Assembly: GCA_964487475.1 (NCBI GenBank)
Contig: CAZAPM010000010.1
Coordinates: 3,005 to 67,004, forward strand
From: an uncultured Planctomycetales bacterium
Lineage (GTDB): Bacteria; Omnitrophota; Gorgyraeia; Gygaellales; Profunditerraquicolaceae
Length of the DNA stretch: 64,000 nt
Reading direction: 5' to 3'
In this document: one piece after another, positions 1 to 33,475 of the stretch
Numbering within the stretch: position 1 is the stretch's first letter
Layout: each line of letters opens with the position of its first letter
Notes under the pieces: generated by a model
What the model was told of the DNA's origin: nothing
What the model saw: only the letters and a program-made list of their open reading frames with translations
The model's database searches: none
Translations under genes and position numbers: made by a program

Positions 1-567
1 AAGGCGGTCAATGAGCTCGCCGAAAGCCCGGGCAAGCTCATCGTGGTGGGGGAGCGCGGGAAATCCTACGTCCGGGAGAGCACCGCGTCCTTCGTGGCCT
101 TTCCCGGCATCAAGGACGAGGAGCGTTACAGCCAGGCCATGCAGCTTAGGGATTACCTGATCAAGCGCATCAAGGACGGGACGTACGGGCAGCTGAGGAT
201 AGTGTATCCCCGGCCGGTCACGTTCACCGTGCAGAAAGTGGATGTGGTGACCTGTCTGCCCTTTACACCTCCGAAGCGCAAGGATGAATCGATCTCCCAG
301 TTCTCCCGGGAGGTGATCCTGGAATCGGACCTGGGGGATATCCTGGAGTATCTGTTGGGCATCTGGATCGGGCAGAAGGTGTACGAGATCTTCGGATTGA
401 GCCGGCTGGCGGAGTTCGCCGCCAGGTACGTGCACCTGGAGGAGAGCCTGCAGAAGCTTAAGGAAATGGACGCCAAGCAGCGGCTGCAGTATTTCCGGGT
501 GCGGCATGAAATGATCGACCGGAACATGCGCGAGCTTTTCAGCGCCCGGTTGCTGTATTCCAACTAA
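1..567 (+). CDS. atpG: F-type ATP synthase gamma subunit, C-terminal part (5' end lies outside the window)
   Basis: The reading frame is open from base 1. The C-terminal helix RLAEFAARY...YFRVRHEMIDRNMRELFSA parallels the gamma C-terminus (SEHAARM...YNRARQAAITQELTEIVSGA). It lies immediately upstream of atpD. Confidence 0.7.
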   Translation, partial: KAVNELAESPGKLIVVGERGKSYVRESTASFVAFPGIKDEERYSQAMQLRDYLIKRIKDGTYGQLRIVYPRPVTFTVQKVDVVTCLPFTPPKRKDESISQFSREVILESDLGDILEYLLGIWIGQKVYEIFGLSRLAEFAARYVHLEESLQKLKEMDAKQRLQYFRVRHEMIDRNMRELFSARLLYSN

Positions 568-576
568 GGGGAGAAG

Positions 577-1971
577 ATGGCAGCGGCAAAAGGAAGAGTG
601 ACGGCGGTGCAGGGCCCGGTGGTGGACGTGCGTTTCTCCCGCGCCGAGGACGTGCCGAATATCTATACCATGCTTTCCTGCAAGACCCTCGACGGAGTGC
701 CGGTGATCCTGGAGGTGGCGGAGCATCTTCCCGGGCATCTGGCCCGCTGCATCTCCATCAATTCCACCATCAACCTCCAGCGCAACACCGAAGTGGAGAT
801 CGCCGGCAGTTCCATCCAGATACCCGCGGGCGAGGTCCTCTACGGCCGCATCATCAACGTGCTGGGAGAGCCCATAGACCAGCAGGGACCGCTGGAAAGT
901 GACGAGAGGGTCTCCATCCGCCGGCCGGATATGGGAAGCCGCGTGCGCATCGACAAGGACCAGAAGGGGGTCACTCATTTCGAGGTCATGGAGACGGGGA
1001 TCAAGATCATCGACCTGCTCTCGCCCCTGGTCAAAGGCTCCAAGACCGGGATCCTGGGAGGCGCCGGTCTGGGCAAGAGCGTGCTGACCCTCGAGATCAT
1101 CCAGCATATCGTCAAGAAGTACCAGGGAAGCTGCGTGTTCGTGGGCGTGGGTGAGCGTATCCGCGAAGGAAACGAACTCTATTTCGAGCTCAAGCATCAC
1201 GAGGTGCTCTCCAAGACCATGATGGTGTTCGGCCAGATGAACGAGCCTCCGGGCGCGCGTTTCGGGGTGGCCATGACCGGGATCACCATCGCGGAGACGA
1301 TCCAGCGCAAGAACCAGGACGTGCTCATGTTCGTGGACAACATCTTCCGTTTCGTGCAGGCCGGCGCGGAGATCTCGACGCTTTTAGGGCGCGTGCCTTC
1401 GGAGACGGGATACCAGCCGACGCTGATGTCGGAGGTGGCGGAGTTCCACGAGCGCATCCGCACCTCGAAGGACACCAGCGGTTCCATCACTTCCATCGAG
1501 GCGGTGTACGTGCCGGCGGACGACTTGACCGACCCGGCGGTCGTGGCGCTTTTCAGTTTCATGGATTCGGTGCTGGTGCTCTCCCGCGAGCGCATCCAGC
1601 TGGGGTTGTATCCGGCCATCGACCCGCTGCTGTCCTCCTCCTCCAACCTGGATATCGACATCGTGGGCCGCCGGCATTTCGAGACCGCCCAGGAAGCGGT
1701 GCGCATCTTCCAGCGTTACGAAGAGCTGCGGCGCATCGTGCTGGTCGTCGGTATCGACGAGCTTTCGCACGCCGACCGCCTGCTCTACGAGCGCGCGCGC
1801 AAACTGCAGAACTTTCTGACCCAGCCTTTTTTCGTCGGAGAAGCGTATACCGGGAAAAAGGGAGCGTATGTCACCATCCCGCAGACGATCGAGGGATGCG
1901 AGAAGATCATGTCCGGGCGCGTGGATAACCGTCCCGAAGAGGAGTTCTACCTGATCGGAGCACTGGAATAG
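577..1971 (+). CDS. atpD: F1-ATPase beta subunit (divergent; P-loop GGAGLGKS)
   Basis: Full-length colinear similarity to F1 beta: GIKIIDLL, GGAGLGKS P-loop, GERIREGNE, QMNEPPGAR, DNIFRF, DDLTDP. RBS AGGGGAG upstream. Confidence 0.88.
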   Translation: MAAAKGRVTAVQGPVVDVRFSRAEDVPNIYTMLSCKTLDGVPVILEVAEHLPGHLARCISINSTINLQRNTEVEIAGSSIQIPAGEVLYGRIINVLGEPIDQQGPLESDERVSIRRPDMGSRVRIDKDQKGVTHFEVMETGIKIIDLLSPLVKGSKTGILGGAGLGKSVLTLEIIQHIVKKYQGSCVFVGVGERIREGNELYFELKHHEVLSKTMMVFGQMNEPPGARFGVAMTGITIAETIQRKNQDVLMFVDNIFRFVQAGAEISTLLGRVPSETGYQPTLMSEVAEFHERIRTSKDTSGSITSIEAVYVPADDLTDPAVVALFSFMDSVLVLSRERIQLGLYPAIDPLLSSSSNLDIDIVGRRHFETAQEAVRIFQRYEELRRIVLVVGIDELSHADRLLYERARKLQNFLTQPFFVGEAYTGKKGAYVTIPQTIEGCEKIMSGRVDNRPEEEFYLIGALE

Positions 1972-1972
1972 G

Positions 1973-2443
1973 ATGCAGCGCATACAGAAGAAGCTCGGCG
2001 AGATACTCATCTCCAAGGGGCTGATCACCAGCGTGCAGCTGACCATGGCCCTGGCCCAGCAGTCTGTCTCCAAGGAGTATCTGGGCCGGATCCTGATCAA
2101 GAACGGGGTGATCACGGAGCATAACCTGATGATGGTGCTCTCCGAGCAGTTCGCGATCCCGATCGTGCAGTTGAAGCCCAAGGACGTGGACTGGGAGTTC
2201 GTGAGGACCTTTTCCCCCTCCATGGTGCTTGACCATCGGTGTCTGCCCTTGCGCCGGGACGAATGGACGGTGACGGTGGCCATCACCAATCCGCTGGATA
2301 TGTGGGTGATGAAGCTGGCGGATGACTGTTGCCGGGGCCTGAAGCTTAAGCTGGTGCTGGTCTCCGAAGCGGAGATGGATAACGCCACGTATGTGTTCAA
2401 GCAGTACCTTAAGCAGAGCATCAACGACCTTTTCAAGGAATAA
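1973..2443 (+). CDS. standalone MshEN / T2SS-E N-terminal domain protein (putative c-di-GMP-binding)
   Basis: Two tandem GspE-N-like repeats: KLGEILISKGLITSVQLTMALAQQ and YLGRILIKNGVITEHNLMMVLSEQ. The first matches the MshEN c-di-GMP motif RLGxxLLxxGLIxxxxLxxALxxQ. ATG lies 1 nt after the atpD TAG. Confidence 0.75.
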   Translation: MQRIQKKLGEILISKGLITSVQLTMALAQQSVSKEYLGRILIKNGVITEHNLMMVLSEQFAIPIVQLKPKDVDWEFVRTFSPSMVLDHRCLPLRRDEWTVTVAITNPLDMWVMKLADDCCRGLKLKLVLVSEAEMDNATYVFKQYLKQSINDLFKE

Positions 2444-2446
2444 CCC

Positions 2447-4579
2447 ATGCCCAAGAAGATCGATATCACGTTAGCCGACGCGGTCGCCGAAAGAGGTTGG
2501 GTGGCACGGGAGCAGCTGGCAGGGCTGCTTAAAGAAGCGGATGCTTCCGGTGCGCCCCTGGGACAGGTGCTGGTCAAAGGCGGATTCCTGACCGAAGCGA
2601 AGGTCCAGGAGGTGCTGAGCGAGACCTTCAAACTTTCCTGTATCAGCCTGCGCCAGGCCCAGATCGACAAGGAGGCGCTGGAACGGGTGCCGGTCAAGAT
2701 CGCCACGTATTATAAGTTCATCCCGTTGAAGATGCGGGGAGGGGTGTTGGAAGTGGCGGTGGCGTATCCGCTGGATATCAAGACCATGGACGAGGTACGC
2801 ACCCAGGTGGGAAGCGATATCGAGGTGTTCCTGGCTTCCGCCTCCGAGATCGCCGACGGGCTGAAACAGTACTACGGCCTGGCGGCGGACACTCTGGAGC
2901 GTATCCACTCCGAGTCCGGGGCTCCGGGCGAGCCGCCGGCGCCGAGCAGTTTCGAGAAGGTCGAGGATATCGAGAAGCTGGCGGGGGATGCCTCTGTGAT
3001 CAAGCTGGTCAACCAGATCATCCTCGACGCGTACCGCAAGCGCGCCACGGACATCCATATCGAGCCCTTCCGGGAGGGCATGGCCCTGCGCTACCGTATC
3101 GACGGGGTGTTGTACGACGCCAACGTGGCGACCGATATCTCCCGGTACATGAATGCCATCATCTCCCGGATCAAGATCATGTCCAACTTGAATATCGTGG
3201 AGCGGCGGCTGCCCCAGGACGGGCGGGCCATCGTGCGCGTGCAGGAGCAGATGCTGGACTTGAGGATCTCCACCATCCCGACACCGTTCGGGGAAAGCGT
3301 CGTGATCCGCATCCTGCCCACGCATATGCTTTTCTCCCTGGAGAAGCTGGGGCTTTCCAGCGGCGACCTGCGCATCTTCGAGGACCTGATCCGCAAGCCC
3401 CACGGGATCGTCTTCGTCACCGGCCCGACGGGAAGCGGCAAGACGACTACGCTCTACGCCGCGCTTTCCTGCATCAATACCAAGGACCGCAAGATCATCA
3501 CTATCGAGGACCCGATCGAATACGAGATGGCGGGGATCACCCAGATCCAGGTGCAGCCGGAGATCGGCCTGGATTTCGCCCGGGGGCTGCGCAGTATCCT
3601 GCGCCACGACCCGGACGTGATCATGGTCGGAGAGGTGCGCGACCTGGAGACCGCGGAGATCGCCATCCGCGTGGCGTTGACCGGGCATCTGGTCTTTTCC
3701 ACCCTGCACACCAACGATGCCGCCAGCGGCGTGACCCGCCTGCTGGATATCGGGGTGGAGCCTTATCTTCTGGCCTCCAGCGTCGAGGCGTTCATCGCGC
3801 AGAGGCTTATCCGGACCATTTGTCCCGACTGCAAGTACGAGGATAAAAGCATCCCGCAGGAACTGCGCGAACTGATCCGACAGGAGCTGGGTCTTGATTC
3901 CATCTCGGCGGTCAAGGTGTACCGGGGCCGCGGATGCACCGCCTGTAATTTTACCGGGTTCTTCGGCCGTACCGCCATCTATGAGGTGATGCGCATCGAG
4001 GATTCGGTGCGGGGGCTGATCTTGAAGAAAGCGCCGGCCGACCAGATCAAGAAAGCGGCGGTGGCTGCCGGAATGCATCTTTTGCGCCAGGACGGATGGG
4101 AGAAGGTGCTGCAGGGGGTTACTACTCCGGAGGAGGTCTTCAAGGTGGCTCCTTCGGGCTCCGGCCAGCCGGGTGCGCAGATGCTCTCTTCCGACAGCGC
4201 GATCATCTCCGAGCTTCAGGATAACCGCAGGGTGTTCCCGCGCCTGTATTGCGAGGCGACCTTGCGTTACAACAGGTTCGATCCTTCCGGTTCCAAGGGG
4301 GGGGCGGCCAGGGAAGAGGAGTTCAGCCGCACGACGAACATCTCCGCCGGCGGCATACTTTTTGTTTCGCAGGAGCAGCTTTCCATCGGTACCTTGCTCG
4401 AGCTTTCCATCGTGCTTCCTGACGGGCAGGAACCGGTGGTGTGCTTAAGCCGGGTGGTCAGGGTCGAGAACGCCGGGCAGGAAGGGTTTTACAATATCGC
4501 GGTGTGTTTCCTGGATATCACCAGCGGTCAGCGGGCGCGCCTGTCGAAGTACGTCGACGGCCACCTGCAGGGGCCATAA
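2447..4579 (+). CDS. gspE: GspE/PilB-family secretion ATPase with N-terminal MshEN-like domain and C-terminal PilZ domain
   Basis: Walker A GPTGSGKTTTLYA, Walker B/His box, tetracysteine CPDC...CTAC. N-terminal motif PLGQVLVKGGFLTEAKVQEVLSE. About 130 extra C-terminal aa carry PilZ signatures RRVFPR (RxxxR) and NISAGG ((D/N)xSxGG). Confidence 0.88.
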   Translation: MPKKIDITLADAVAERGWVAREQLAGLLKEADASGAPLGQVLVKGGFLTEAKVQEVLSETFKLSCISLRQAQIDKEALERVPVKIATYYKFIPLKMRGGVLEVAVAYPLDIKTMDEVRTQVGSDIEVFLASASEIADGLKQYYGLAADTLERIHSESGAPGEPPAPSSFEKVEDIEKLAGDASVIKLVNQIILDAYRKRATDIHIEPFREGMALRYRIDGVLYDANVATDISRYMNAIISRIKIMSNLNIVERRLPQDGRAIVRVQEQMLDLRISTIPTPFGESVVIRILPTHMLFSLEKLGLSSGDLRIFEDLIRKPHGIVFVTGPTGSGKTTTLYAALSCINTKDRKIITIEDPIEYEMAGITQIQVQPEIGLDFARGLRSILRHDPDVIMVGEVRDLETAEIAIRVALTGHLVFSTLHTNDAASGVTRLLDIGVEPYLLASSVEAFIAQRLIRTICPDCKYEDKSIPQELRELIRQELGLDSISAVKVYRGRGCTACNFTGFFGRTAIYEVMRIEDSVRGLILKKAPADQIKKAAVAAGMHLLRQDGWEKVLQGVTTPEEVFKVAPSGSGQPGAQMLSSDSAIISELQDNRRVFPRLYCEATLRYNRFDPSGSKGGAAREEEFSRTTNISAGGILFVSQEQLSIGTLLELSIVLPDGQEPVVCLSRVVRVENAGQEGFYNIAVCFLDITSGQRARLSKYVDGHLQGP

Positions 4580-4594: not shown

Positions 4595-5824
4595 ATGCCG
4601 ATGTTCAGATACCGGGCCAAGCAGGGCCCGGAAAAGGTGATCGAAGGGACTCTGGAGGCGCCCAATGAGAAGGACGCCATCGAGCAACTGAGCCGCATGA
4701 ATGCGGTGCCGCTGCATCTGGAAGCCCTCAATGCGGCGCCGGCCGGCCAGCCCAAAGCTTCCGCCGCGGTCCCGGGACACGAAAGCGCGGGGCATAAGGT
4801 CCCATCCCGGGAGGTCACCATTTTCACCCGGCAGCTGGCCAGTCTGATCAAGGCCGGAGTGCCCATCCTTGCGAGCCTGCAGATCATCTCCGAGCAGTCG
4901 GAGAACCCGAGGATGCGCCTGATCCTGCGCAAAGTGCATGATGTGGTCAAGGAGGGGGTCACGTTCTCTTCCGCCTTGAGCCGTTTTCCCGAAGTGTTCT
5001 CCCCGCTTTACATCGCCATGGTGCGCACGGGAGAGGATAGCGGCGTGCTTCCCGAAGTGCTGCTGCGTATCGCGGAGCACCGGGCGAAACAGGAGGAGTC
5101 GCTGGCCAAGATCCGCTCCGCACTGGCCTATCCCATCCTGATGCTGTTGGTGGGGGTGGGCACGATCGTGTTCATGCTGACTTTTGTCATGCCCAGGCTG
5201 ATGAAGGTGTTCTCCAGCCTGGGTCAGGACCTGCCGTTGCCGACGAGGATTTTGCTCAAGATCAGCGCGCTGGCTTCCACCTGGTGGGTGTGGGTCATCC
5301 TGGCGGCGCTGGCGGCGTTCGTATACTCCCGTCTTAAGACCCCCGCCGCGCAGCAGACCGCCGGCAGGCTCGTGCTTTCCGTGCCGGTGATGGGAAAACT
5401 GGTGCGCATGGCCGACCTGGGCCGTTTCTGCCGGACCATGGAAGTGCTGATCAAAAGCGGCATACCGATCCTGCGCGCGATCGACGTTTCCCTGCCCGTG
5501 GTGGGGAATCCCGTACTGCGCAAAGAGCTGCAGGCGGGACTGAAGTCCCTGGAGCAGGGAGGTTCGTTCGGCAGGATACTCAAGAGCTCTCCCAATATCC
5601 CGGCGTTCATGGGTAACCTCCTGGTGGTGGGAGAGGAGTCCGGGAAACTGACCAATGCCTTCAGCGAGATCGCGTACTCCTACGAGCACGATACGGACGA
5701 GGCGATCCGCGCGATGACCAGCCTGGTCGAGCCTCTGCTCATCCTGGGGATGGGGCTGGTGGTGGGGTTCATCGTGATGGCCATGCTCCTTCCGGTCTTC
5801 GAGATCAATCTCGCGGTACGATGA
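4595..5824 (+). CDS. gspF: GspF/PilC-family inner-membrane platform protein
   Basis: 409 aa. Duplicated GspF domain architecture and three TM segments. AAGGAG RBS. Follows gspE. Confidence 0.85.
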   Translation: MPMFRYRAKQGPEKVIEGTLEAPNEKDAIEQLSRMNAVPLHLEALNAAPAGQPKASAAVPGHESAGHKVPSREVTIFTRQLASLIKAGVPILASLQIISEQSENPRMRLILRKVHDVVKEGVTFSSALSRFPEVFSPLYIAMVRTGEDSGVLPEVLLRIAEHRAKQEESLAKIRSALAYPILMLLVGVGTIVFMLTFVMPRLMKVFSSLGQDLPLPTRILLKISALASTWWVWVILAALAAFVYSRLKTPAAQQTAGRLVLSVPVMGKLVRMADLGRFCRTMEVLIKSGIPILRAIDVSLPVVGNPVLRKELQAGLKSLEQGGSFGRILKSSPNIPAFMGNLLVVGEESGKLTNAFSEIAYSYEHDTDEAIRAMTSLVEPLLILGMGLVVGFIVMAMLLPVFEINLAVR

Positions 5825-6651
5825 TCCTGCGGATGCGGCGGGTGCGGGCGATGGTGCTGGCCTGGGCAGCGTCCGCGGTATTGGTAACGGGCGCGGCGAA
5901 TGCCGCCGGCGCTGAAACCGTCAGCTGGAAGCAGGTGGCCGGGGACCATTTCCTCGTCTATTACCTGCAGGATGAGGGGTTCGCCAAAGAGGTCTCTTCG
6001 ATGGCGGAGCGTTATTATCAGCGCATCGCCTCCGAGCTGGGGTACCCGCGCTACAGCGCATTCTGGACATGGGATAACCGGGTCAAAATATACATCTTTC
6101 CCGACCATGCTTCTTTTCTCCGGGCCACCGGGCAGCCGGAGTGGTCGCAGGGGCTGGCGGAATATTCCACCAAGCGGATATTCAGTTATGCCTGGAGCGA
6201 AGGGTTCACCGAGTCGCTCCTGCCGCACGAGATCGCGCATCTGATCTTCCGCGATTTCATCGGTTTCAAGGGGCAGGTGCCGTTGTGGCTGGACGAAGGG
6301 GTCTCCCAATGGGCGGAGGAGCCGAAGCGCCGCGCGGTCAAAGAAGTGATGCGCCGTTTCCTCTCCGAGGGTAAGCTGCTTTCCCTCTCCGCGATGATGA
6401 AACTCGACGTGCGCGAGCTTCCCGCGGGTAAGGGCCATGAGGAACTGATCGATGTGTTCTACGTGCAGTCGGTGTCGCTGGTGGGGTTCCTGATCGAGCG
6501 TTACGGTTCGTTAAGTTTTGCGGAGTTCTGCCGGGGGCTGCGGGACGGCAAAGGGGTGGAGGAAGCGCTGCGCGCCGCGTACCCGGACCATGTGCGTTCG
6601 CTGGATGAATTCGAAAAGGAATGGCGCGGGTATATCGCCGGAGAAATGTAA
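5821..6651 (+). CDS. secreted HExxH zinc-metallopeptidase-like protein (peptidase MA-like)
   Basis: N-terminal signal peptide (MVLAWAASAVLVTGAANAAGA) and HEIAHLIF motif. 4-nt overlap with gspF. Embedded between gspF and gspG. Confidence 0.6.
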   Translation: MILRMRRVRAMVLAWAASAVLVTGAANAAGAETVSWKQVAGDHFLVYYLQDEGFAKEVSSMAERYYQRIASELGYPRYSAFWTWDNRVKIYIFPDHASFLRATGQPEWSQGLAEYSTKRIFSYAWSEGFTESLLPHEIAHLIFRDFIGFKGQVPLWLDEGVSQWAEEPKRRAVKEVMRRFLSEGKLLSLSAMMKLDVRELPAGKGHEELIDVFYVQSVSLVGFLIERYGSLSFAEFCRGLRDGKGVEEALRAAYPDHVRSLDEFEKEWRGYIAGEM

Positions 6652-6661
6652 GGAGGGGGAC

Positions 6662-7075
6662 ATGAGGTTTCGAAGCAGGACGAAAGGGTTCACGCTCATC
6701 GAACTGATGCTGGTGGTGATCATCATCGGCGCGCTGGTGGCCATGGTCATGCCGCGTCTGACCGGCAGGAGCGAGCAGGCGAGGGTGGTGGCGGCGCAGG
6801 CGGATATCAACGCCAATATCGCGACCGCGCTTAAGCTCTACGAACTGGATAACGGGGGATTTCCGACGACGGAGGAGGGGTTGGCGGCGCTCACGGCCCG
6901 TCCGGGAAGCGCATTGTCCTGGAAAGGCCCTTACATCGAGAAGAAGCCCGTGGATCCCTGGGGCCGGGAGTATAAGTTCCGTTCGCCCGGGGAGCACCGC
7001 AGCGATTACGATCTCTATTCGGTGGGCAAGGACGGCCAGGATAATACCGCCGACGACGTGAAGAACTGGGAATGA
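6662..7075 (+). CDS. gspG: major pseudopilin GspG (type IV pilin-like N-terminus)
   Basis: Prepilin cleavage/methylation motif KGFTLIELMLVVIIIGAL. GspG-like body (DGQDNTADDVKNWE). RBS AGGAGGGGG upstream of ATG at 6662. Confidence 0.85.
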   Translation: MRFRSRTKGFTLIELMLVVIIIGALVAMVMPRLTGRSEQARVVAAQADINANIATALKLYELDNGGFPTTEEGLAALTARPGSALSWKGPYIEKKPVDPWGREYKFRSPGEHRSDYDLYSVGKDGQDNTADDVKNWE

Positions 7076-7467
7076 TGAGCGCATCGCGCCGCGGTTTCAC
7101 GCTGGTGGAGGTGCTCGCCGCCGCCTGCATCCTTTCCTTGGGGATCGTGCTGGTGCACCGGTCGTTCCTTTCCTCCCTGGATGCCTTTTCCGAGACCTAT
7201 GATTATGCCCGGGTCTCGTCGGCGGCGGATGAGCTGCTCTGGGAAGCCGTTTACAGACTTACCTATATCCGTTCCATGCAGGGCGCTCCGGATGCCGGAG
7301 TGATCAAGGTGCGTCAGCGTCCGTATGCCTGGACGCGCGTGCACGAGTCCCTGGGCGAAGTACCGGGGGCGCAGCTATGGAAGGTCGAGGTATCGCTGCA
7401 GCGTACCGCAGGAAGGAGGCGCGGGGGGGTGACCCGCAGCACGTATGTGCTTTCCCGGCAACCGTAA
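7072..7467 (+). CDS. minor pseudopilin (GspH/I-like)
   Basis: RGFTLVEVLAAACIL prepilin N-terminus. Overlaps the gspG stop. Confidence 0.65.
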   Translation: MMSASRRGFTLVEVLAAACILSLGIVLVHRSFLSSLDAFSETYDYARVSSAADELLWEAVYRLTYIRSMQGAPDAGVIKVRQRPYAWTRVHESLGEVPGAQLWKVEVSLQRTAGRRRGGVTRSTYVLSRQP

Positions 7468-8032
7468 GGGCGTATCCTTAATCGAGCTTTTAGTGGTCTC
7501 TGTCATCGCGGCGATGGTGACCATGGGCGTGTTCTTTTCCATCAACAGCGGGGTGAAGGTCTGGCAGGCGATCAAGCAGCAGATGCCGGAGGAGGACCTG
7601 GCGCTTTTCCTCGACCGTTTCGAGGGGGATGTGCGCAATTACCTGCGTTACGGCCCCGAACTCTTCGAAGGCACGGATACGATGATGGAGTTTCCGACGG
7701 TGGTCAGGAGCATGATGCTGCGCACCACCTCTCCGGGGAGGGTGCAGTACCGGTATGAGCCCTCCGACGACCGCCTGTACCGTCAGCAGAAGGATTTCTC
7801 CCAGATGTATCAGGACCGCCAGCCGTATGTGGAGCATGTGATCGAGGGGGTGCGGGAAGTGCACTGCCGCTACCTTTTGTTCGATGCGCAGACCAAGGAG
7901 CTGGGCTGGTATGACGAATATTCCGGGAGCGAGCCTCCCCTGGCGGTATCACTGGAGATCGTCACGGGAGAAGATTCCAGGCCGCAGCGGTTCGTGAAGA
8001 CCGTACCCGTTGCCATTGCGAGAGTTAAGTAA
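7445..8032 (+). CDS. minor pseudopilin (GspJ-like)
   Basis: KGVSLIELLVVSVIAAM prepilin-like N-terminus. About 190 aa. Lies in the pseudopilin run. Confidence 0.6.
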   Translation: MCFPGNRKGVSLIELLVVSVIAAMVTMGVFFSINSGVKVWQAIKQQMPEEDLALFLDRFEGDVRNYLRYGPELFEGTDTMMEFPTVVRSMMLRTTSPGRVQYRYEPSDDRLYRQQKDFSQMYQDRQPYVEHVIEGVREVHCRYLLFDAQTKELGWYDEYSGSEPPLAVSLEIVTGEDSRPQRFVKTVPVAIARVK

Positions 8033-8056: not shown

Positions 8057-8998
8057 TTGGATTATAATATGCGTACAAGCCGGGGTTCATTGTTCATAGT
8101 CGCTCTTTGGTCGCTTTGTTTCCTGGGCGCGTTGGCGGTGGTAGTGGCCGGGGTGGTCAGGCAGAAGATGACGCTTTCCTCGAGGCTGGATGCCCGCGCG
8201 CAGTTACGGCAGACGGCCCGCGCCGCGGTGGAGCTGGGATTGTTCCGTATCGCCGAGCGGGCAGGGGGAACGGGTTATTTCTCCGGAAGGGACCCATTGC
8301 TGCAGGCGCATCCGGAGGTGCCTTGCCGCTGGAGCATCTCCGACGAGGAATCCCGGGTGAACCTCAACACTGCCGATATGTTCGTGCTGCGGCGTCTGAT
8401 GCAGGAGGTGCTGCGCGTCGACGAGATGCAGGCGCAGGAACTGGCGGCGGCGGTGGTGGACTGGCGGGATGCGGACAGCGAATTATCCGTTCCCATCGGC
8501 AGCGCGGAAGAGGCGCAGTATCTGAGCCAGCAGTACCCGTATAAGCCCAAGAACGCTCCCTTCGAGTCCTGGGTGGAGCTGGGGCTGGTGAAGGGGTTTA
8601 CCGACGAGTTTGTGGAAGCGCTTTTTCCGTATGTGACGGTGTTCGGGATGGGGAAGGTCAACGCGAACACCGCGCCGGCTCCGGTGCTGCGGGCGCTGGG
8701 CATCCCCGAGGAGCTGGTGGAGGCGATCCTGGAGTATCGCCGGGGGCAGGATGACGCGGAGGGGACCGCGGATGATAATGTTTTTGAAGCGGAAGGGTCG
8801 ATCGTTCCGAAGTTGAGCCAGTACCGGAGATTGAACGATCAGGAGTTGGCGGAGTTGACCCGGGCCGGCGTGTTCCTGGGAGTGGCCTCGGAATATTTCC
8901 GTATCCAGGCTCAGGCCCGGCGAAACGTCAAAGAGACGTACGAGATGTATGCGGTGGCCGATGCGGCGGGCACACCGGTGTATTGGCGCGAACCATAA
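8057..8998 (+). CDS. gspK: GspK-like minor pseudopilin
   Basis: N-terminus RGSLFIVALW...LAVV is typical of GspK. Helix-hairpin-helix-like VNANTAPAPVLRAL. An alternative ATG at 8069 is also possible. Confidence 0.65.
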   Translation: MDYNMRTSRGSLFIVALWSLCFLGALAVVVAGVVRQKMTLSSRLDARAQLRQTARAAVELGLFRIAERAGGTGYFSGRDPLLQAHPEVPCRWSISDEESRVNLNTADMFVLRRLMQEVLRVDEMQAQELAAAVVDWRDADSELSVPIGSAEEAQYLSQQYPYKPKNAPFESWVELGLVKGFTDEFVEALFPYVTVFGMGKVNANTAPAPVLRALGIPEELVEAILEYRRGQDDAEGTADDNVFEAEGSIVPKLSQYRRLNDQELAELTRAGVFLGVASEYFRIQAQARRNVKETYEMYAVADAAGTPVYWREP

Positions 8999-9007
8999 AA
9001 GGATGCC

Positions 9008-10519
9008 ATGGGGATCATCACCTTCGATTTCAACAGGTTGAACGTGCTGAAGCGCAAAAGCGGCGGAGGAGGGGTCTCCCTGACCGTGGTCTTAAGCGGT
9101 ACGCTGCTCAAGCTTTCCCGGGTAAGGAACACCGGGACCAAGATCGAGGTCCTGGATGTGCAGTGCCACAACGTGGCCGGCTTGACCGACGGCGAGATCT
9201 CCGATCTGATCGGAGTGGCCGCGCGGGGTTGGCTCTCGCAGGGCGGGTCATTCGCCGACGCTTGCCTGGTCGTCCCGGCATATCAGGCGATCACCAAGAA
9301 CATCGAGATCCCCTCCACCTCCCCCCAGGAGATCAAGGAGATCATCAACCTTCAGGCCGGACGGCATACCCCGTATTCCCGCGAGGAGATCATCGTCGAT
9401 TACGTGAATCTCGGGGTGTACCGGCATAATTACACCAAGGTGCTGCTGGTGATCGTGACCAAGGCGGCGGTGAAGCGGCAGTTCGAGATCATGGAGCGGG
9501 CGGGGATCAAGGTCTCCAAAGTGCTTTTTGCGCCAGAGGTCATGGCCGCGGGCGTGGCGCTGACCTTGAAGACCCCGGTGGCGGCCGAATCGGTGGAAGT
9601 GCTGGTGCATGTCGACGAGCAGTGTACGGATTTCGTGGTGGTGACCTCCGGCAAGCCCCTCTTCGTGCGCAGCATCCCCGTCGGGTCAAAACATTTCATG
9701 GACGATATCCATAAATACGAGGAGAAGTTCGCGCAGGAGATCCGCAACTCCCTGGAGTCCTACCTGAGCGAAGATATCGACAAGCCTCCCGTGGGAATGG
9801 TGCTGGCCGGCGCGGTGGAGATGCTCTCGGAAACCCCGGCGGCGCTTTCCAAGGTGCTGGGGATCCCGGTGCGCGTTTCCGCGTACATGGAATCCTTCCT
9901 GATGGGAAACGAAGTCTTTAACAAGCTTTCGGTGGCGAAGTATGCATCCTTCCTGGATGCCTGGAGCTATTTTTTCGCCCGGATCCCCTTGCAGACCAGC
10001 CTGATCCCCGAGGAGATCAAGCTCAAACAGCAGGTCGAACAGCGGGGAAGGGAGCTCATCAAGACCGGTATCCTCCTGCTGCTGATCTTCGTGCTTTTCT
10101 TCTTCACCCTCATCACCAAGATCACTTTTTCCACCCTTTACTTGCAGAAAGTGGATGCGCTTTTCCAGCCCCGTTCGAAAGAAGCGAGGAAGCTGGAGGA
10201 GGATTTCGCCAAGGTAAGCCTCATCAAGCAGTATTTGAGCCGGCGGGGCTTTTCCCTGGAGGTGCTCACCGAGCTTTACAATACTTCGACGGACGAGCTG
10301 CAGCTTTCCGACATCCGTTTCGACGAGCAGGGGAAGTTCACCGTGCGGGGCACGGCGGAGACCATGTCCGCGGTCTTCTCCTTCGTGGAGAACCTGGAGA
10401 AATCGAATTATTTCAAGGACGTCAAGACGAAGTATACCACCAAGCGCAAGGAAGGCCTGCGCGACGTGACCGATTTCGAGATCAACGCGTTCTTGAGCAG
10501 AAAGGGTGAGAAGAAGTGA
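9008..10519 (+). CDS. PilM-like actin-fold domain fused to PilN-like TM/periplasmic domain (GspL-like assembly protein)
   Basis: N-terminal roughly 330 aa are PilM/FtsA-like. One TM helix (ILLLLIFVLFFFTLI) is followed by a coiled-coil/periplasmic region. Lies in the T2SS/T4P operon. Confidence 0.7.
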   Translation: MGIITFDFNRLNVLKRKSGGGGVSLTVVLSGTLLKLSRVRNTGTKIEVLDVQCHNVAGLTDGEISDLIGVAARGWLSQGGSFADACLVVPAYQAITKNIEIPSTSPQEIKEIINLQAGRHTPYSREEIIVDYVNLGVYRHNYTKVLLVIVTKAAVKRQFEIMERAGIKVSKVLFAPEVMAAGVALTLKTPVAAESVEVLVHVDEQCTDFVVVTSGKPLFVRSIPVGSKHFMDDIHKYEEKFAQEIRNSLESYLSEDIDKPPVGMVLAGAVEMLSETPAALSKVLGIPVRVSAYMESFLMGNEVFNKLSVAKYASFLDAWSYFFARIPLQTSLIPEEIKLKQQVEQRGRELIKTGILLLLIFVLFFFTLITKITFSTLYLQKVDALFQPRSKEARKLEEDFAKVSLIKQYLSRRGFSLEVLTELYNTSTDELQLSDIRFDEQGKFTVRGTAETMSAVFSFVENLEKSNYFKDVKTKYTTKRKEGLRDVTDFEINAFLSRKGEKK

Positions 10520-11082
10520 AGGTGCCTAAACAGCTCGAATTCGCGCTGCAGTTCTACTCCAAGCTTTCCGCCAAGGAAAGGACCATTTTTTACGTGGCGG
10601 TGTTCTTTCTTGCGGTGATGCTGGTGGACAGGGTGTTCATCGCGCCTATCTTCGGGAAGATCTCCGCGCTGGACGAGGAGATCGCGCAGAAACGCACGGA
10701 CATGCGCCGGGACAGCAAGGTGGTGGCCCAGAAGGAACGGATCGCCGCGGAAGTGGCGAGGTATTCCTCGTACCTGGGGATCGCCGAGAACGAGCAGGAG
10801 TCGATGACCGTGCTCTTGAAGCAGCTGGAGAGCTTTGCCAATAAGAGCAAGCTCTATATCGTGGACATGAAGCCGGTAGGGGTTAAACAGGAGAAGGATA
10901 AGACTAAGCGCCTGCAGGTCAATCTTTCCTGCGAAGGGCTGATGGAGCAGGTCATGGAGTTCATGTATACCATCGAGAATTCCCCGGATCTTATGGTCAT
11001 CGAGAAATACCAGATCAGCCCGAAGTCCCGTGATACGGGGATCGCTTCGTGCGTGATGACCGTATCGAGGATCGCGTTGTAG
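10516..11082 (+). CDS. PilO/GspM-like inner-membrane assembly protein
   Basis: Single N-terminal TM (IFYVAVFFLAVMLV), coiled coil, then an alpha/beta domain. 4-nt overlap with the upstream gene. Confidence 0.6.
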   Translation: MKVPKQLEFALQFYSKLSAKERTIFYVAVFFLAVMLVDRVFIAPIFGKISALDEEIAQKRTDMRRDSKVVAQKERIAAEVARYSSYLGIAENEQESMTVLLKQLESFANKSKLYIVDMKPVGVKQEKDKTKRLQVNLSCEGLMEQVMEFMYTIENSPDLMVIEKYQISPKSRDTGIASCVMTVSRIAL

Positions 11083-11084
11083 CG

Positions 11085-11125
11085 GCAGTAGCACCCGGCC
11101 TTATCGGTTAGGCCGGTGTTTCACT
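11085..11125 (+). terminator. weak hairpin after the pilO-like gene
   Basis: CCGGCCTTatcggttAGGCCGG stem followed by a T-rich stretch. Confidence 0.3.
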
Positions 11126-27745: not shown

Positions 27746-27747
27746 TC

Positions 27748-32512: not shown

Positions 32513-33475
32513 ATGGATACGTCGATCCGCCTGGAAAGCGTCCAGGAAGCGCAGTTGATATTCGGGCCGGCCGATGAGCATATGCAGCTTATCGAGCAGG
32601 AGTTCAAGGTCCGGGTGACGGTGCGCGGGGAGCATTTGAAGGTCAGCGGATTGGCCAGCAACATCAAAAAAGCCTCCCAGGTGATCGAGCATATCTTGGG
32701 ATCGGTGCGGCAGGAGGGGGCTTCCCTTTCCAAGGCGGATATCCTCTACCTGGTCAATAATTACAAGAAGGGGACGGCGCAGCAGCAGCTGACGGATGAT
32801 TTCAAGGTGCTTTCCCCGTCCGGGAGGCACACCGCGGCGATCGGGCCGAAGACCCGGGGTCAGCGGGAGTATGTCGAAGCGATCAAGGCGCATGACATCG
32901 TCTTCGGCATCGGGCCTGCGGGCACCGGAAAGACCTATCTGGCCATGGCCTGCGCGGTCGAGGCGCTCAAGAAGCAGGAGGTGCGCCGCATCATCCTGAC
33001 CCGTCCGGCCATCGAGGCCAGGGGAGAGTCCCTGGGGTTTTTGCCCGGGGATATGTACGAGAAGATCTCCCCGTACCTGCGGCCGCTCTATGACGCCCTC
33101 TACGATATGATGGAGGCGGAGCGCATTGAAAAGTATCTCGAAACCGGTATAATAGAGGTAGCGCCGCTGGCATATATGCGGGGGCGTACTTTGAACGAGG
33201 CGTTCATCATCCTGGACGAAGCCCAGAACTGTACCGCGGAGCAGATGAAGATGTTCCTGACCCGCCTGGGGTTCGATTCCAAGGCGGTGATCACCGGGGA
33301 CCTGACGCAAAGCGACCTGCCGGATGCCAGGCCTTCCGGCCTGATGCAGGCCACGTCGATCCTGAAGGATATCCCCGGGATCAAGTTCAACTTTTTCACC
33401 GGGGCGGATGTGGTGCGGCATCATCTGGTGCAGCGCATCATCGAGGCGTATGATACAGCCTTTCCTAAAAAATAA
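32513..33475 (+). CDS. phoH: PhoH-family ATPase
   Basis: GPAGTGKTYLAMA Walker A. PhoH-like throughout. Conserved phoH-7TMHD-ybeY context. Confidence 0.88.
   Translation: MDTSIRLESVQEAQLIFGPADEHMQLIEQEFKVRVTVRGEHLKVSGLASNIKKASQVIEHILGSVRQEGASLSKADILYLVNNYKKGTAQQQLTDDFKVLSPSGRHTAAIGPKTRGQREYVEAIKAHDIVFGIGPAGTGKTYLAMACAVEALKKQEVRRIILTRPAIEARGESLGFLPGDMYEKISPYLRPLYDALYDMMEAERIEKYLETGIIEVAPLAYMRGRTLNEAFIILDEAQNCTAEQMKMFLTRLGFDSKAVITGDLTQSDLPDARPSGLMQATSILKDIPGIKFNFFTGADVVRHHLVQRIIEAYDTAFPKK

What the first reader, a model, noticed from the sequence alone, without database searches (positions are those of the whole stretch)
1973..4579. Secretion/pilus ATPase carrying both an N-terminal MshEN and a C-terminal PilZ c-di-GMP-binding domain
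MshEN domains of MshE/GspE bind c-di-GMP through the RLGxxLLxxGLIxxxxLxxxLxxQ motif. The 710-aa GspE here has that motif and, beyond the normal C-terminal zinc-finger domain, a roughly 130-aa extension with both PilZ signatures, RRVFPR and NISAGG. Two different c-di-GMP receptor modules on one traffic ATPase is an uncommon architecture. It suggests layered second-messenger control of this T2SS/T4P-like machine. The preceding standalone MshEN protein could be a third input.
Basis: partly seen in the sequence, partly recalled or inferred. Interest (0 to 1): 0.65.

Follow-up and report, generated by a model that had tools for sequence, protein, structure and literature searches.

The report
Pilus/secretion motor ATPase with PilZ tail

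Summary
The two ORFs exist as described: 1973-2443 (156 aa) and 2447-4579 (710 aa).

**Confirmed**
- The 710-aa protein is a catalytically intact GspE/PilB-class ATPase with a MshEN domain, a disordered linker of about 26 aa, and a canonical C-terminal PilZ domain.
- PilZ scores 46 bits in Pfam. The AF2 model matches c-di-GMP-bound Alg44, MotI, MrkH and BcsA.
- RxxxR and NxSxxG are invariant in about 180 relatives.

**Not confirmed**
- The ATPase does not carry the canonical MshEN c-di-GMP motif.
- The experimentally essential glycines are missing family-wide (Gly at both sites in 0 of 120). The window's copy (Ala/Gly) is the least degenerate and borderline.
- The upstream 156-aa protein keeps both glycines and both glutamines (40 of 40) and models onto c-di-GMP-bound MshE at 1.9 Å.

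**Context**
- The architecture is fixed across Omnitrophota: 120 of 120 best hits and 63 species.
- It sits in a conserved operon, F1-like atpA-G-D / [MshEN] / GspE-PilZ / GspF / peptidase / pseudopilins / GspL-M-like. The F1-pilus synteny is already published. The PilZ fusion was not found in the papers I could search.

**Verdict**
- The most likely function is c-di-GMP control of pilus or pseudopilus assembly through the PilZ tail.
- This is a new variant of a known kind and of moderate interest.

The parts
43..567 (+). F1-type ATPase gamma-like subunit. Its 5' end is cut by the window edge.
   Evidence: Pfam ATP-synt 67 bits. It is very divergent from canonical gamma (48 bits against a cutoff of 194). 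It is conserved upstream of the cluster in all 54 loci that have upstream sequence.
577..1971 (+). F1-type ATPase beta subunit. Its stop codon lies 1 nt before the MshEN gene start, and no epsilon gene follows.
   Evidence: TIGR01039 atpD 560 bits, above the 463 cutoff; Pfam; synteny. F1-like clusters adjacent to pilus clusters in Omnitrophota are described in PMC10066038.
1973..2443 (+). Standalone MshEN protein of 156 aa, made of MshEN_N, MshEN_C and a long C-terminal helix. It is the candidate high-affinity c-di-GMP receptor.
   Evidence: NF053729 63 bits against a cutoff of 38, and 37 of 37 family members pass at E<=1e-9. AF2 pLDDT 90. Foldseek top hit is 5HTL, MshE with c-di-GMP, at TM 0.79-0.87 and rmsd 1.9 A. 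The family has 71 clusters.
1991..2149 (+). 53-residue MshEN_N ligand motif of the standalone protein. Motif I is residues 7-30 (KLGEILISKGLITSVQLTMALAQQ), the spacer is 31-35, and motif II is residues 36-59 (YLGRILIKNGVITEHNLMMVLSEQ).
   Evidence: Gly at position 3 of both motifs in 40 of 40 and Gln at position 24 in 40 of 40 and 41 of 43. Position 1 is R/K in 27 of 40 in motif I, and F/Y in motif II.
2447..4579 (+). GspE/PilB-class extension ATPase of 710 aa with a C-terminal PilZ domain.
   Evidence: TIGR02533 GspE scores 592 (cutoff 630) and TIGR02538 PilB scores 567 (cutoff 676), so it matches neither equivalog. All 120 best homologs carry PF00437, PF05157 and PF07238.
2468..2626 (+). Degenerate MshEN_N (ND0) motif region of the ATPase, residues 8-60.
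   Evidence: R->T, G->A and Q->A in motif I; R->P and Q->T in motif II. NF053729 is borderline.
2630..2884 (+). MshEN_C (ND1) subdomain of the ATPase, residues 62-146.
   Evidence: Pfam MshEN 66 bits.
2981..4141 (+). T2SSE ATPase core, residues 179-565. It has Walker A at 326-333, the Asp box at 354, Walker B at 388-399, the His box at 413 and the Zn site CxxC...CxxC at 459-500.
   Evidence: Pfam 438 bits. All motifs are present. The Walker lysine and all four cysteines are invariant in 120 of 120.
4142..4225 (+). Variable acidic linker rich in Ser and Pro, residues 566-593.
   Evidence: Length is 21-58 aa across the family, enriched in E, S, A and P. pLDDT is below 50 in the AF2 model.
4226..4576 (+). 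Canonical PilZ domain, residues 594-710. RxxxR is at 595-599 (nt 4229-4243) and NxSxxG at 631-636 (nt 4337-4354).
   Evidence: Pfam 46 bits. AF2 pLDDT 82, with six strands and a C-terminal helix. Foldseek hits Alg44 4xrn/4rt0, MotI 5vx6, MrkH, BcsA and YcgR, E down to 5e-6, TM 0.72-0.82. R595 120/120, R599 119/120, D/N631 120/120, S633 118/120 and G636 120/120. The motif is intact in 63 of 63 species representatives.
4595..5824 (+). GspF/PilC platform protein.
   Evidence: Pfam T2SSF x2, 194 bits. TIGR02120 scores 357, below its 424 cutoff. Conserved synteny.
5821..6651 (+). Peptidase_MA_2 protein. Its start overlaps the gspF stop, and it is conserved inside the operon.
   Evidence: Pfam 61 bits. 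Present in most loci between gspF and gspG. No NCBIfam match.
6662..7075 (+). GspG-like major pseudopilin.
   Evidence: Pfam T2SSG 112 bits plus N_methyl.
7072..8032 (+). Two minor pseudopilins: 7072-7467 with N_methyl only, and 7445-8032 which is GspJ-like.
   Evidence: Pfam; synteny.
8057..8998 (+). GspK-like minor pseudopilin.
   Evidence: Pfam T2SSK_1st 74 bits and T2SSK.
9008..10519 (+). PilM-PilN fusion, which has GspL-like topology.
   Evidence: Pfam PilM_2 55 bits and PilN 41 bits.
10516..11082 (+). PilO/GspM-like protein.
   Evidence: Weak Pfam PilO, T2SSM_b and T2SSM hits, all below gathering score. Synteny.
11095..11116 (+). Terminator-like hairpin and likely operon end.
   Evidence: Seven pairs, six of them G-C, followed by a T-rich tail immediately after the last gene. 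The total number of such sites in the region is not above chance.

Best explanation
This is the motor ATPase of a T2SS/T4aP-like filament machine that is conserved across Candidatus Omnitrophota.

Shown:
- The protein is a catalytically intact GspE/PilB-class hexameric-type ATPase.
- A flexible tether of about 26 aa joins its C-terminus to a canonical PilZ beta-barrel. The barrel's c-di-GMP-contacting residues (RxxxR, D/NxSxxG) are invariant in the family.
- Its N-terminal MshEN domain keeps the fold-forming hydrophobic pattern but has lost the ligand-site glycines, arginines and glutamines.
- Most species (37 of 54 loci with intact upstream context) encode a separate 155-aa MshEN protein with an intact motif immediately upstream.

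Inferred:
- The PilZ tail is the family's conserved c-di-GMP sensor.
- Because RxxxR sits exactly at the junction of linker and barrel, ligand binding should clamp the tether onto the barrel, as in YcgR-type proteins and BcsA. That would reposition PilZ relative to the ATPase ring.
- Extension ATPases regulated by c-di-GMP (MshE, M. xanthus PilB, the Xanthomonas PilB-PilZ-FimX complex) are generally promoted by it. My committed guess is therefore that c-di-GMP binding relieves an inhibitory PilZ contact, or promotes engagement with the GspL-like/GspF platform, and so switches filament assembly on. I put activation at about 0.5 and a brake at about 0.25.
- The degenerate MshEN (ND0/ND1) most likely serves as a protein-docking module. 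Candidate partners are the PilM-like domain of the GspL-like protein and/or the PilZ tail, as in the X. citri PilB(ND0/ND1)-PilZ complex.
- The standalone MshEN is an accessory, probably higher-affinity c-di-GMP receptor. It could act as an adaptor or decoy for the same docking surfaces and give a second threshold.
For: - Domain calls.
- PilZ fold: AF2 pLDDT 82 and Foldseek hits to ligand-bound PilZ domains.
- PilZ ligand residues are invariant in 120 metagenomic clusters and 63 species representatives.
- Catalytic motifs and Zn-site cysteines are invariant.
- The MshEN_N glycines are absent from the ATPase (Gly/Gly in 0 of 120 and 0 of 61) and present in 40 of 40 standalone proteins. G11L and G40I abolish binding in VcMshEN (PMC5013675).
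- On the NF053729 c-di-GMP motif model, the ATPase N-termini score 39 bits at best while 37 of 37 standalone proteins pass at E<=1e-9.
- The standalone model superposes on c-di-GMP-bound MshE 5HTL and PilF GSPII-B 8pdk.
- The operon is conserved in 54 of 54 loci with upstream sequence.
- PilZ docking on a degenerate MshEN-like PilB N-domain has a precedent in PMC8389850.
- A second, ATPase-less MshEN-PilZ fusion family occurs in the same genome and phylum. That points to MshEN and PilZ being a recurrent functional pair.
- The linker is variable and predicted to be disordered.
Against: - There is no biochemical evidence of any kind. Ligand binding, its direction of effect and all the contacts are inferred.
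- No diguanylate cyclase or phosphodiesterase was found in the 64-kb window, and the c-di-GMP capacity of the organism was not tested.
- The window's own ATPase is the least degenerate family member: Ala/Gly at the glycine sites, all 14 hydrophobic positions kept, and 39.1 bits as a fragment. Its MshEN might still bind weakly.
- In VcMshE, changes at Arg9 and Gln32 cost less than 5-fold in affinity, so loss of those polar residues is weak evidence on its own.
- In the standalone proteins, position 1 of motif II is Phe/Tyr, not Arg, which falls outside the published relaxed pattern.
- The standalone gene is absent from 17 of 54 loci, so it cannot be essential to the mechanism.
- No full-length or multimer model could be made, so the position of PilZ relative to the ring is unknown.
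Confidence: 0.7

Rival explanations
1. One reading: both the N-terminal MshEN and the C-terminal PilZ of the same polypeptide bind c-di-GMP. That would give layered dual-receptor control in cis, with the standalone MshEN as a third input.
For: - The window's ATPase keeps all 14 hydrophobic motif positions, has Gly at motif II position 3 and the small residue Ala at motif I position 3.
- Motif II fits the published relaxed pattern.
- NF053729 reaches 39.1 bits on the isolated fragment, just above the cutoff of 38.
- Losses of Arg and Gln cost less than 5-fold in VcMshE.
Against: - Motif I fails the relaxed pattern at three positions.
- NF053729 scores 34.1 bits, below the cutoff, in the full-length protein. 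It aligns only to model positions 8-52 and so skips the R-L-G start.
- No member of the family has Gly at both sites, and 109 of 120 have a bulky residue at one or both. A ligand site is therefore not under selection in this family.
- The contrast with the adjacent standalone protein (Gly/Gly in 40 of 40) is stark.
Confidence: 0.17
2. [quoted passage not shown] Alternatively it binds a different nucleotide. Any c-di-GMP input would then come only through the standalone MshEN or other partners.
For: - Non-binding PilZ proteins that dock on the PilB N-terminal domain exist (PMC8389850).
- The tail has a family-specific conserved surface, CLARVVR...AVCFLD, outside the ligand motifs.
- No c-di-GMP enzymes were seen in the window.
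Against: - Non-binding PilZ proteins lack RxxxR and D/NxSxxG (10.1101/814665). Here both motifs are invariant over about 180 sequences.
- The model matches full six-stranded, ligand-bound PilZ barrels much better than the Xanthomonas type. Alg44 gives E 5e-6 and TM 0.72-0.82, whereas 7lkm/3dsg give E 2e-2 and TM 0.47.
Confidence: 0.08
3. The fusion is an artefact, either an assembly or gene-calling error that joins a GspE gene to a separate PilZ gene, or a chance motif match.
For: In one clade a separate small PilZ ORF does lie directly after gspE.
Against: - The ORF is continuous in the window.
- The same architecture is found in 120 of 120 best database clusters from independent JGI, ENA, NCBI and Logan assemblies and in 63 species genomes, including single-cell genomes.
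- Even the clade with the extra small PilZ ORF keeps the fused PilZ on its ATPase.
Confidence: 0.01

Closest known systems
MshE-type c-di-GMP-binding T4P/T2SS ATPases (V. cholerae MshE VC0405, P. aeruginosa PA14_29490; PMC5013675, PMC4624772)
   Same: They share the GspE/PilB ATPase core, an N-terminal MshEN_N plus MshEN_C domain, and c-di-GMP as the presumed regulator of filament assembly.
   Different: In MshE the ligand binds the N-terminal 53-residue motif and there is no PilZ. Here that motif is degenerate in the ATPase, a canonical PilZ is fused at the C-terminus, and an intact MshEN is encoded as a separate protein.
Xanthomonas citri PilB-PilZ-FimX complex (PMC8389850; PDB 7LKM/7LKO)
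   Same: An extension ATPase with a degenerate MshEN-like ND0/ND1 works together with a PilZ-fold protein to receive a c-di-GMP signal. The standalone MshEN model also matches the 7LKO PilB N-domain (TM 0.64).
   Different: In Xanthomonas, PilZ is a separate, non-binding, incomplete barrel that bridges to the real receptor, the EAL domain of FimX. Here PilZ is covalently fused, has a full six-stranded barrel and keeps both ligand motifs, and no FimX is implied. Whether this PilZ touches ND0/ND1 has not been tested.
Thermus thermophilus PilF (three tandem MshEN/GSPII domains; PDB 6F8L, 8PDK)
   Same: There are multiple MshEN modules per motor, and only some of them are competent for c-di-GMP. 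The standalone family profile hits PilF best (E 3.5e-45).
   Different: In PilF all the modules are on one chain and there is no PilZ. Here the competent-looking module is a separate polypeptide and the cis module is degenerate.
PilZ-gated machines: BcsA cellulose synthase, Alg44, YcgR/MotI (PDB 4P00, 4RT0, 5Y6F, 5VX6)
   Same: A canonical PilZ with RxxxR at an interdomain linker controls a membrane-associated machine. These are the best structural matches of the tail.
   Different: The output domain is a traffic ATPase, not a glycosyltransferase, a HlyD-like protein or a flagellar brake. None of the fusion-partner lists I could read includes a T2SSE ATPase.
Omnitrophota 'type-4a pilus' clusters adjacent to non-respiratory F1-like ATPase genes (Seymour et al. 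2023, PMC10066038)
   Same: This is the same locus type: atpA-G-D-like genes directly upstream of the pilus/T2SS-like genes, as seen in the window and in 54 of 54 loci.
   Different: That paper does not mention PilZ, MshEN or c-di-GMP (no occurrences). By Pfam, the components here look more T2SS-like (GspG, J, K and L-like) than T4aP-like.

Membership tests
Canonical c-di-GMP-binding PilZ domain (PF07238) | HMM score above the Pfam gathering threshold | tested here: met
   46.0 bits against 22.5, E 6.9e-12, residues 609-704.
Canonical c-di-GMP-binding PilZ domain (PF07238) | RxxxR motif in the N-terminal loop | tested here: met
   R595-VFP-R599. R595 is 120/120 and R599 is 119/120. Intact in 63 of 63 species.
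Canonical c-di-GMP-binding PilZ domain (PF07238) | [D/N]xSxxG motif | tested here: met
   N631-I-S633-A-G-G636. D/N is 120/120, S is 118/120 and G is 120/120.
Canonical c-di-GMP-binding PilZ domain (PF07238) | Six-stranded beta-barrel followed by a C-terminal helix | tested here: met
   The AF2 model has six strands and helix 108-122, with pLDDT 82. Foldseek hits Alg44, MotI, MrkH, BcsA and YcgR at TM 0.66-0.82.
Canonical c-di-GMP-binding PilZ domain (PF07238) | Measured c-di-GMP binding | not testable with these tools
   Needs ITC, DRaCALA or MST on purified protein.
c-di-GMP-binding MshEN domain, applied to the ATPase N-terminus | MshEN fold and Pfam PF05157 hit | tested here: met
   66 bits, residues 62-146. 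The hydrophobic pattern of MshEN_N is kept at 14 of 14 positions.
c-di-GMP-binding MshEN domain, applied to the ATPase N-terminus | Two 24-residue motifs with a 5-residue spacer that match at least the relaxed pattern [RKPN]hGxxhhxx[GAS]hhxxxxhxxxhxx[QNKRYWST] | tested here: not met
   The register and spacer are kept, but motif I fails at positions 1, 3 and 24. Only motif II matches.
c-di-GMP-binding MshEN domain, applied to the ATPase N-terminus | Gly at position 3 of both motifs (G11 and G40 of VcMshE; G11L and G40I lose binding) | tested here: not met
   Ala10 and Gly39 in the window. Across the family, Gly/Gly occurs in 0 of 120 and 0 of 61.
c-di-GMP-binding MshEN domain, applied to the ATPase N-terminus | NCBIfam NF053729 (c-di-GMP motif, MshE-related) at or above 38 bits | tested here: inconclusive
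   34.1 bits in the full-length protein and 39.1 bits as a 70-aa fragment, aligned to model positions 8-52 only. The other 43 family members score lower.
c-di-GMP-binding MshEN domain, applied to the standalone 156-aa protein | NF053729 at or above 38 bits, and the MshEN fold | tested here: met
   63.1 bits over model positions 1-53. 37 of 37 relatives pass at E<=1e-9. The AF2 model matches 5HTL at TM 0.79-0.87 and rmsd 1.9 A.
c-di-GMP-binding MshEN domain, applied to the standalone 156-aa protein | Gly at position 3 and Gln at position 24 of both motifs, with a 5-residue spacer | tested here: met
   G9, Q30, G38 and Q59, with spacer 31-35. Gly/Gly occurs in 40 of 40.
c-di-GMP-binding MshEN domain, applied to the standalone 156-aa protein | Arg, or [RKPN], at position 1 of both motifs | tested here: not met
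   Motif I has K7 (family R17, K10, L8, Q4). Motif II has Y36 (family F in 37 of 40), which is outside the relaxed pattern. Its effect on binding is unknown. Changes at Arg9 cost less than 5-fold in VcMshE.
GspE (TIGR02533) or PilB (TIGR02538) equivalogs | Score above the curated equivalog cutoff | tested here: not met
   GspE scores 592 against 630 and PilB scores 567 against 676. It belongs to the GspE/PilB class but to neither equivalog.
GspE/PilB-class extension ATPase (PF00437 with Zn-binding CTD) | Walker A, Asp box, Walker B, His box and the tetracysteine site | tested here: met
   All are present at 326, 354, 388, 413 and 459-500. The Walker lysine and the four cysteines are 120/120.
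Type II secretion system (complete) | GspC, the GspD secretin and the GspO prepilin peptidase alongside E, F, G-K, L and M | tested here: not met
   The operon has E, F, G, two or three minor pseudopilins, K, an L-like PilM-PilN and an M/PilO-like protein. No secretin, GspC or peptidase is in the operon, or among the larger ORFs of the window scanned. They may lie elsewhere in the genome.

The most novel reading that the evidence does not exclude
In Omnitrophota, c-di-GMP sensing by the pilus/T2SS-like motor has been rewired.

- The ancestral in-cis MshEN ligand site decayed into a docking module.
- A canonical PilZ was fused to the ATPase C-terminus.
- An intact MshEN was kept as a separate polypeptide.

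Together these would form a two-receptor, two-affinity switch (MshEN sub-micromolar, PilZ micromolar) in which PilZ and MshEN-fold domains contact each other physically. The same pairing recurs in a second, membrane-anchored MshEN-PilZ family. The switch would gate a filament machine that is co-transcribed with a Mycoplasma-gliding-like F1 motor, in ultra-small bacteria that are probably epibiotic or predatory. That would tie c-di-GMP to host attachment.
Probability: 0.27. Interest if true: 0.65.

Novelty: new variant of a known kind. Interest (0 to 1): 0.45.

Why it matters
c-di-GMP control of type IV pilus and type II secretion motors is so far known in two forms. One is direct binding to the N-terminal MshEN domain (MshE, PilF, M. 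xanthus PilB). The other is indirect, through a non-binding PilZ adaptor plus FimX (Xanthomonas). A covalently fused, ligand-competent PilZ on the motor itself would be a third solution.

It also offers a natural experiment, because the same protein shows an MshEN site that has decayed while a trans-encoded copy stayed intact.

The family is universal in a phylum of uncultivated nanobacteria thought to live on or prey on other cells. It sits in an operon with a non-respiratory F1-like motor. It therefore gives a concrete biochemical handle, small soluble domains that can be expressed in E. coli, on how these organisms might regulate attachment.

The practical limit is that everything beyond the architecture is inference.

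Tried and rejected
1. I tested whether loss of the standalone MshEN gene is compensated by an intact motif in the ATPase. It is not. ATPases from loci with and without the gene are equally degenerate.
2. I first read the small ORFs of about 162 aa after gspE in clade L060/62/64/65/69/70 as a 'split' PilZ. That is rejected, because those ATPases keep their own PilZ. The small ORFs are extra copies, 39% identical to the tail.
3. By eye, the first ~48 aa of those small ORFs resembled the GspF N-terminus. BLASTP does not support this (E 0.55), so I dropped the idea.
4. I considered P0204 (60% identity, 710 aa, N-terminal extension) as a possible MshEN-fused variant without PilZ. That is rejected. 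It is a different paralog with a TM N-terminus, ND1 only and a shortened Zn region.
5. L068 has an 809-aa ORF overlapping the MshEN ORF in another frame. This may be a frameshift, and I did not interpret it.
6. A search for GGDEF, EAL or HD-GYP in the window by Pfam on 30 ORFs and by regex found none. This says little about a whole genome.
7. A Foldseek search against AFDB50, meant to give the taxonomic spread of ATPase-fused PilZ, could not run because the library was unavailable.
8. Literature searches for a T2SSE/PilB-PilZ fusion and reading of the PilZ diversity papers, the MshEN paper, the PilB review and two Omnitrophota papers found no description of it. The library lacks most subscription journals, and domain-architecture databases could not be queried.
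9. A full-length or hexamer model that would place PilZ relative to the ring was not possible.

Full report
**1. The observation**

The window has two adjacent + strand ORFs exactly where stated: 1973-2443 (156 aa) and 2447-4579 (710 aa).

Pfam places three domains on the 710-aa protein, all above their gathering scores:
- T2SSE at 179-565, 438 bits.
- MshEN at 62-146, 66 bits.
- PilZ at 609-704, 46 bits against a threshold of 22.5, E 7e-12.

The quoted PilZ signatures are real. RRVFPR lies at 594-599, which contains RxxxR at 595-599, and NISAGG lies at 631-636. The bare regex is not specific, since it also hits two unrelated ORFs in the window. The call therefore rests on the HMM, the fold and conservation.

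The ATPase core is intact. Walker A, the Asp box, Walker B, the His box and the CxxC...CxxC zinc site are all present, and the Walker lysine and four cysteines are invariant in 120 relatives.

NCBIfam puts the protein between GspE (592 bits, cutoff 630) and PilB (567 bits, cutoff 676). It reaches neither equivalog.

**2.

I aligned residues 586-710 with 26 relatives (A1) and predicted the structure. Mean pLDDT is 82 and pTM is 0.73. The model has six strands and a C-terminal helix, and the first eight residues are disordered.

Foldseek against the PDB returns only PilZ domains at the top:
- Alg44 with c-di-GMP (4xrn/4rt0, E 5e-6, TM 0.72-0.82).
- MotI/DgrA (5vx6).
- MrkH, BcsA and YcgR.

The non-binding Xanthomonas-type PilZ (7lkm, 3dsg) scores far worse, at E 2e-2 and TM 0.47. 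The C-terminal extension is therefore a canonical PilZ barrel, and the test is passed.

**3. The MshEN claim does not hold as written**

The ATPase has no match to the strict MshEN motif.
- Motif I (residues 8-31, TLADAVAERGWVAREQLAGLLKEA) has Thr for Arg, Ala for Gly and Ala for Gln. It fails even the relaxed pattern published by Wang et al. (PMC5013675).
- Motif II (residues 37-60) fits only the relaxed pattern.

NCBIfam's dedicated c-di-GMP motif model NF053729 gives 34.1 bits in the full-length protein, below the cutoff of 38. It gives 39.1 bits on an isolated 70-aa fragment. In both cases the alignment covers model positions 8-52 and skips the R-L-G start. The other 43 family members tested all score lower.

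Wang et al. showed three things for VcMshEN:
- G11L and G40I, at position 3 of each motif, abolish binding.
- Any change to a conserved hydrophobic residue costs more than 10-fold in affinity.
- Changes at Arg9 and Gln32 cost less than 5-fold.

The glycines are therefore the most diagnostic positions. In the ATPase family:
- Gly at motif I position 3 occurs in 0 of 120 and 0 of 61.
- Gly at motif II position 3 occurs in 3 of 120 and 6 of 61.
- No sequence has Gly at both.
- 109 of 120 carry a bulky residue (Tyr, Gln, Arg, Lys and others) at one or both sites.

The hydrophobic pattern, which also builds the four-helix bundle, is kept. I conclude that the family retains the MshEN fold but selection does not maintain a c-di-GMP site.

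The window's copy is the least degenerate member, with Ala/Gly at the glycine sites and 14 of 14 hydrophobic positions kept. Weak residual binding in this one protein cannot be excluded.

**4. The upstream 156-aa protein is the better MshEN**

- It scores 63 bits on NF053729 over the whole model.
- It belongs to a family of 71 clusters of about 155 aa, with PF05157 only, mostly annotated 'hypothetical protein'. All 37 tested pass NF053729 at E<=1e-9.
- Gly at position 3 and Gln at position 24 of both motifs are essentially invariant, with Gly/Gly in 40 of 40. The 5-residue spacer is kept.
- Position 1 is Arg or Lys in motif I. In motif II it is a conserved Phe (Tyr here), which is a deviation of unknown effect.
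- The family profile hits Thermus PilF, Geobacter and Myxococcus PilB, and V. cholerae MshE 5HTL at E 3e-21.
- The AF2 model (pLDDT 90) superposes on c-di-GMP-bound 5HTL at rmsd 1.9 A and TM 0.79-0.87. The next hits are c-di-GMP-bound PilF GSPII-B and the X. citri PilB N-domain.

**5. It is a phylum-level family, not a one-off**

All 120 best database hits (60-65% identity, about 714 aa) carry PilZ, MshEN and T2SSE. They come from independent JGI, ENA, NCBI and Logan assemblies, and the named ones are Candidatus Omnitrophota.

A scan of species-representative genomes with the PilZ alignment returned 70 loci. Almost all are Omnitrophota MAGs or SAGs, with a few bins that are probably mislabelled.

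The PilZ ligand residues are essentially invariant:

| Position | Conservation |
|---|---|
| R595 | 120/120 |
| R599 | 119/120 |
| D/N631 | 120/120 |
| S633 | 118/120 |
| G636 | 120/120 |
| Whole motif, species representatives | intact in 63/63 |

In a 1.84-billion-protein representative library, the PilZ tail is found on the nearest representatives (P0192-P0196 and P0198, 50-53% identity). The next relatives are plain ATPases of about 570 aa, REC-MshEN-T2SSE, tandem T2SSE-T2SSE or T2SSF-T2SSE. Among close relatives the tail is therefore specific to this family.

The linker is 21-58 aa and rich in Glu, Ser, Ala and Pro.

**6. Genomic context**

Gene order is conserved: atpA-like, atpG-like, atpD, [MshEN-only], gspE-pilZ, gspF, Peptidase_MA_2, gspG, a pseudopilin, gspJ-like, gspK-like, a pilM-pilN fusion (GspL-like) and a pilO/gspM-like gene.
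- All 54 loci with enough upstream sequence have the F1-type genes directly upstream.
- 37 of these 54 have the MshEN-only gene. In the other 17, atpD directly precedes gspE, with no detectable MshEN gene.
- In the window the genes are separated by 1-15 nt or overlap.
- A good terminator-like hairpin follows the last gene at 11095-11116.

This looks like a single operon. No secretin, prepilin peptidase or PilT is in it.

Seymour et al. 2023 (PMC10066038) already reported that Omnitrophota 'type-4a pilus' clusters lie next to a non-respiratory F1-like ATPase related to the Mycoplasma gliding motor. They proposed a role in attachment to host cells. That paper never mentions PilZ, MshEN or c-di-GMP.

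**7. A second MshEN-PilZ pairing**

About 23 kb downstream, ORF 27742-28863 encodes a 371-373-aa protein with the following parts:
- An N-terminal TM helix and a coiled coil.
- A complete MshEN domain (NF053729 40.7 bits).
- A canonical PilZ (RREAIR, DISRDG).

It too is a conserved Omnitrophota family of about 50 clusters, all 'hypothetical'. Its PilZ motifs are invariant. MshEN motif I is intact, and motif II carries Thr at the Gly position.

Two independent architectures in one phylum that combine MshEN and PilZ suggest the two domains work together. This is Rosetta-stone reasoning and an inference, not a demonstration.

**8. Mechanism**

Shown:
- An intact motor ATPase.
- A flexible tether.
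- A PilZ barrel that looks ligand-competent, with RxxxR exactly at the junction of tether and barrel.
- A degenerate MshEN in cis.
- An intact MshEN in trans in most species.

Inferred:
- c-di-GMP binds the PilZ tail. As in YcgR-type proteins and BcsA, binding clamps the linker onto the barrel and repositions PilZ relative to the ring.
- By analogy with MshE, M. xanthus PilB and the Xanthomonas PilB-PilZ-FimX complex, I commit to activation of filament assembly at about 0.5, against a brake at about 0.25.
- The degenerate ND0/ND1 probably docks the PilM-like domain of the GspL-like protein and/or the PilZ tail. X. citri PilZ binds exactly this domain of PilB.
- Wang et al. report that MshEN generally binds about 10-fold tighter than PilZ domains. 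The standalone MshEN could therefore provide a second, lower threshold as an adaptor or decoy. It cannot be essential, because a third of species lack it.

**9. Novelty and limits**

I found no description of a T2SSE/PilB-PilZ fusion in any of the following:
- The PilZ diversity papers.
- The MshEN paper.
- A 2024 PilB review.
- Two Omnitrophota genome papers.
- Eight full-text searches.

The searchable library is incomplete. Automatic domain databases certainly list the architecture, because the precomputed Pfam hits are there.

I rate it a new variant of a known kind, namely c-di-GMP-regulated traffic ATPases. Interest is moderate. PilZ is a promiscuous fusion partner and the regulatory logic is familiar. 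What adds interest is the apparent swap of receptors, the fixation across a phylum and the link to the F1-like motor operon of putative epibiotic nanobacteria.

There is no biochemical evidence. No c-di-GMP enzymes were found in the window, and I could not model the full-length protein or the hexamer.

Noticed in passing
window 27742-28863 (+): A second protein combines MshEN and PilZ without any ATPase. It has a TM helix, a coiled coil, a full MshEN domain (NF053729 40.7 bits; motif I KIGEILLEHHFIVKDILDRALEHQ) and a canonical PilZ (RREAIR, DISRDG). It is a conserved Omnitrophota family of about 50 clusters, all unannotated. Its PilZ motifs are invariant, and MshEN motif II has Thr at the Gly position in 43 of 50.
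   Followed up: partly
window 43-1971 (+); L001-L070 upstream regions: F1-type ATPase genes (alpha-like, a very divergent gamma, and beta) lie directly upstream of the T2SS/T4P-like genes and apparently in the same operon. No epsilon gene follows beta. This holds in 54 of 54 loci with upstream sequence. The beta subunit still passes the canonical atpD equivalog cutoff (560 against 463), while gamma scores only 48 bits. The synteny was reported by Seymour et al. 2023 as a non-respiratory, Mycoplasma-gliding-like F1 ATPase.
   Followed up: partly
window 5821-6651 (+): A Peptidase_MA_2 (zincin-like) protein is encoded between gspF and gspG, overlapping the gspF stop by 4 nt. It is conserved at this position in most Omnitrophota loci and has no NCBIfam match. 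It could be a substrate, a processing enzyme or an accessory factor of the machine. Its role is unknown.
   Followed up: no
L060 5854-6342, L062 2326-2811, L064 5854-6342, L065 6486-6974, L069 6375-6893, L070 6378-6863: One clade lacks the standalone MshEN gene. Instead it has an extra ORF of 161-172 aa between gspE-pilZ and gspF. The ORF consists of an unassigned N-terminal segment of about 48 aa and a PilZ domain that is 39% identical to the ATPase tail, with RxxxR and NxSxxG intact. It looks like a duplicated, freestanding copy of the tail.
   Followed up: partly
window 4442-4444 and 4505-4507 (C666 and C687 of the 710-aa protein): The PilZ tail has a family-specific conserved signature outside the ligand motifs: C666 in 'CLARVVR' and C687 in 'AVCFLD', each in 117 of 120, with F688, L689 and D690 nearly invariant. 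The signature is shared by the duplicated small PilZ ORFs but not by the 373-aa MshEN-PilZ protein. It may be a partner-binding surface or a cysteine pair. The Cys-Cys distance could not be measured.
   Followed up: no
window 33408-34781 (+): A 7TM-7TMR_HD plus HD-domain protein of the PgpH type. From my own knowledge, this architecture is associated with c-di-AMP phosphodiesterase activity in Listeria. It is the only cyclic-dinucleotide-related enzyme candidate seen in the window.
   Followed up: no
window 9008-10519 (+): PilM and PilN are fused into one 503-aa protein, which gives the topology of GspL. Together with the GspG, GspJ and GspK Pfam hits, this makes the cluster look more T2SS-like than the 'type-4a pilus' label used in the literature. 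However, no secretin, GspC, prepilin peptidase or PilT is in the operon or among the larger ORFs scanned in the window.
   Followed up: partly
P0197, P0199, P0201, P0202, P0211 (relatives found): The nearest non-PilZ relatives of this ATPase show other unusual fusions: tandem T2SSE-T2SSE proteins of about 1000 aa, a T2SSF-T2SSE fusion (platform plus motor on one chain) and REC-MshEN-T2SSE.
   Followed up: no
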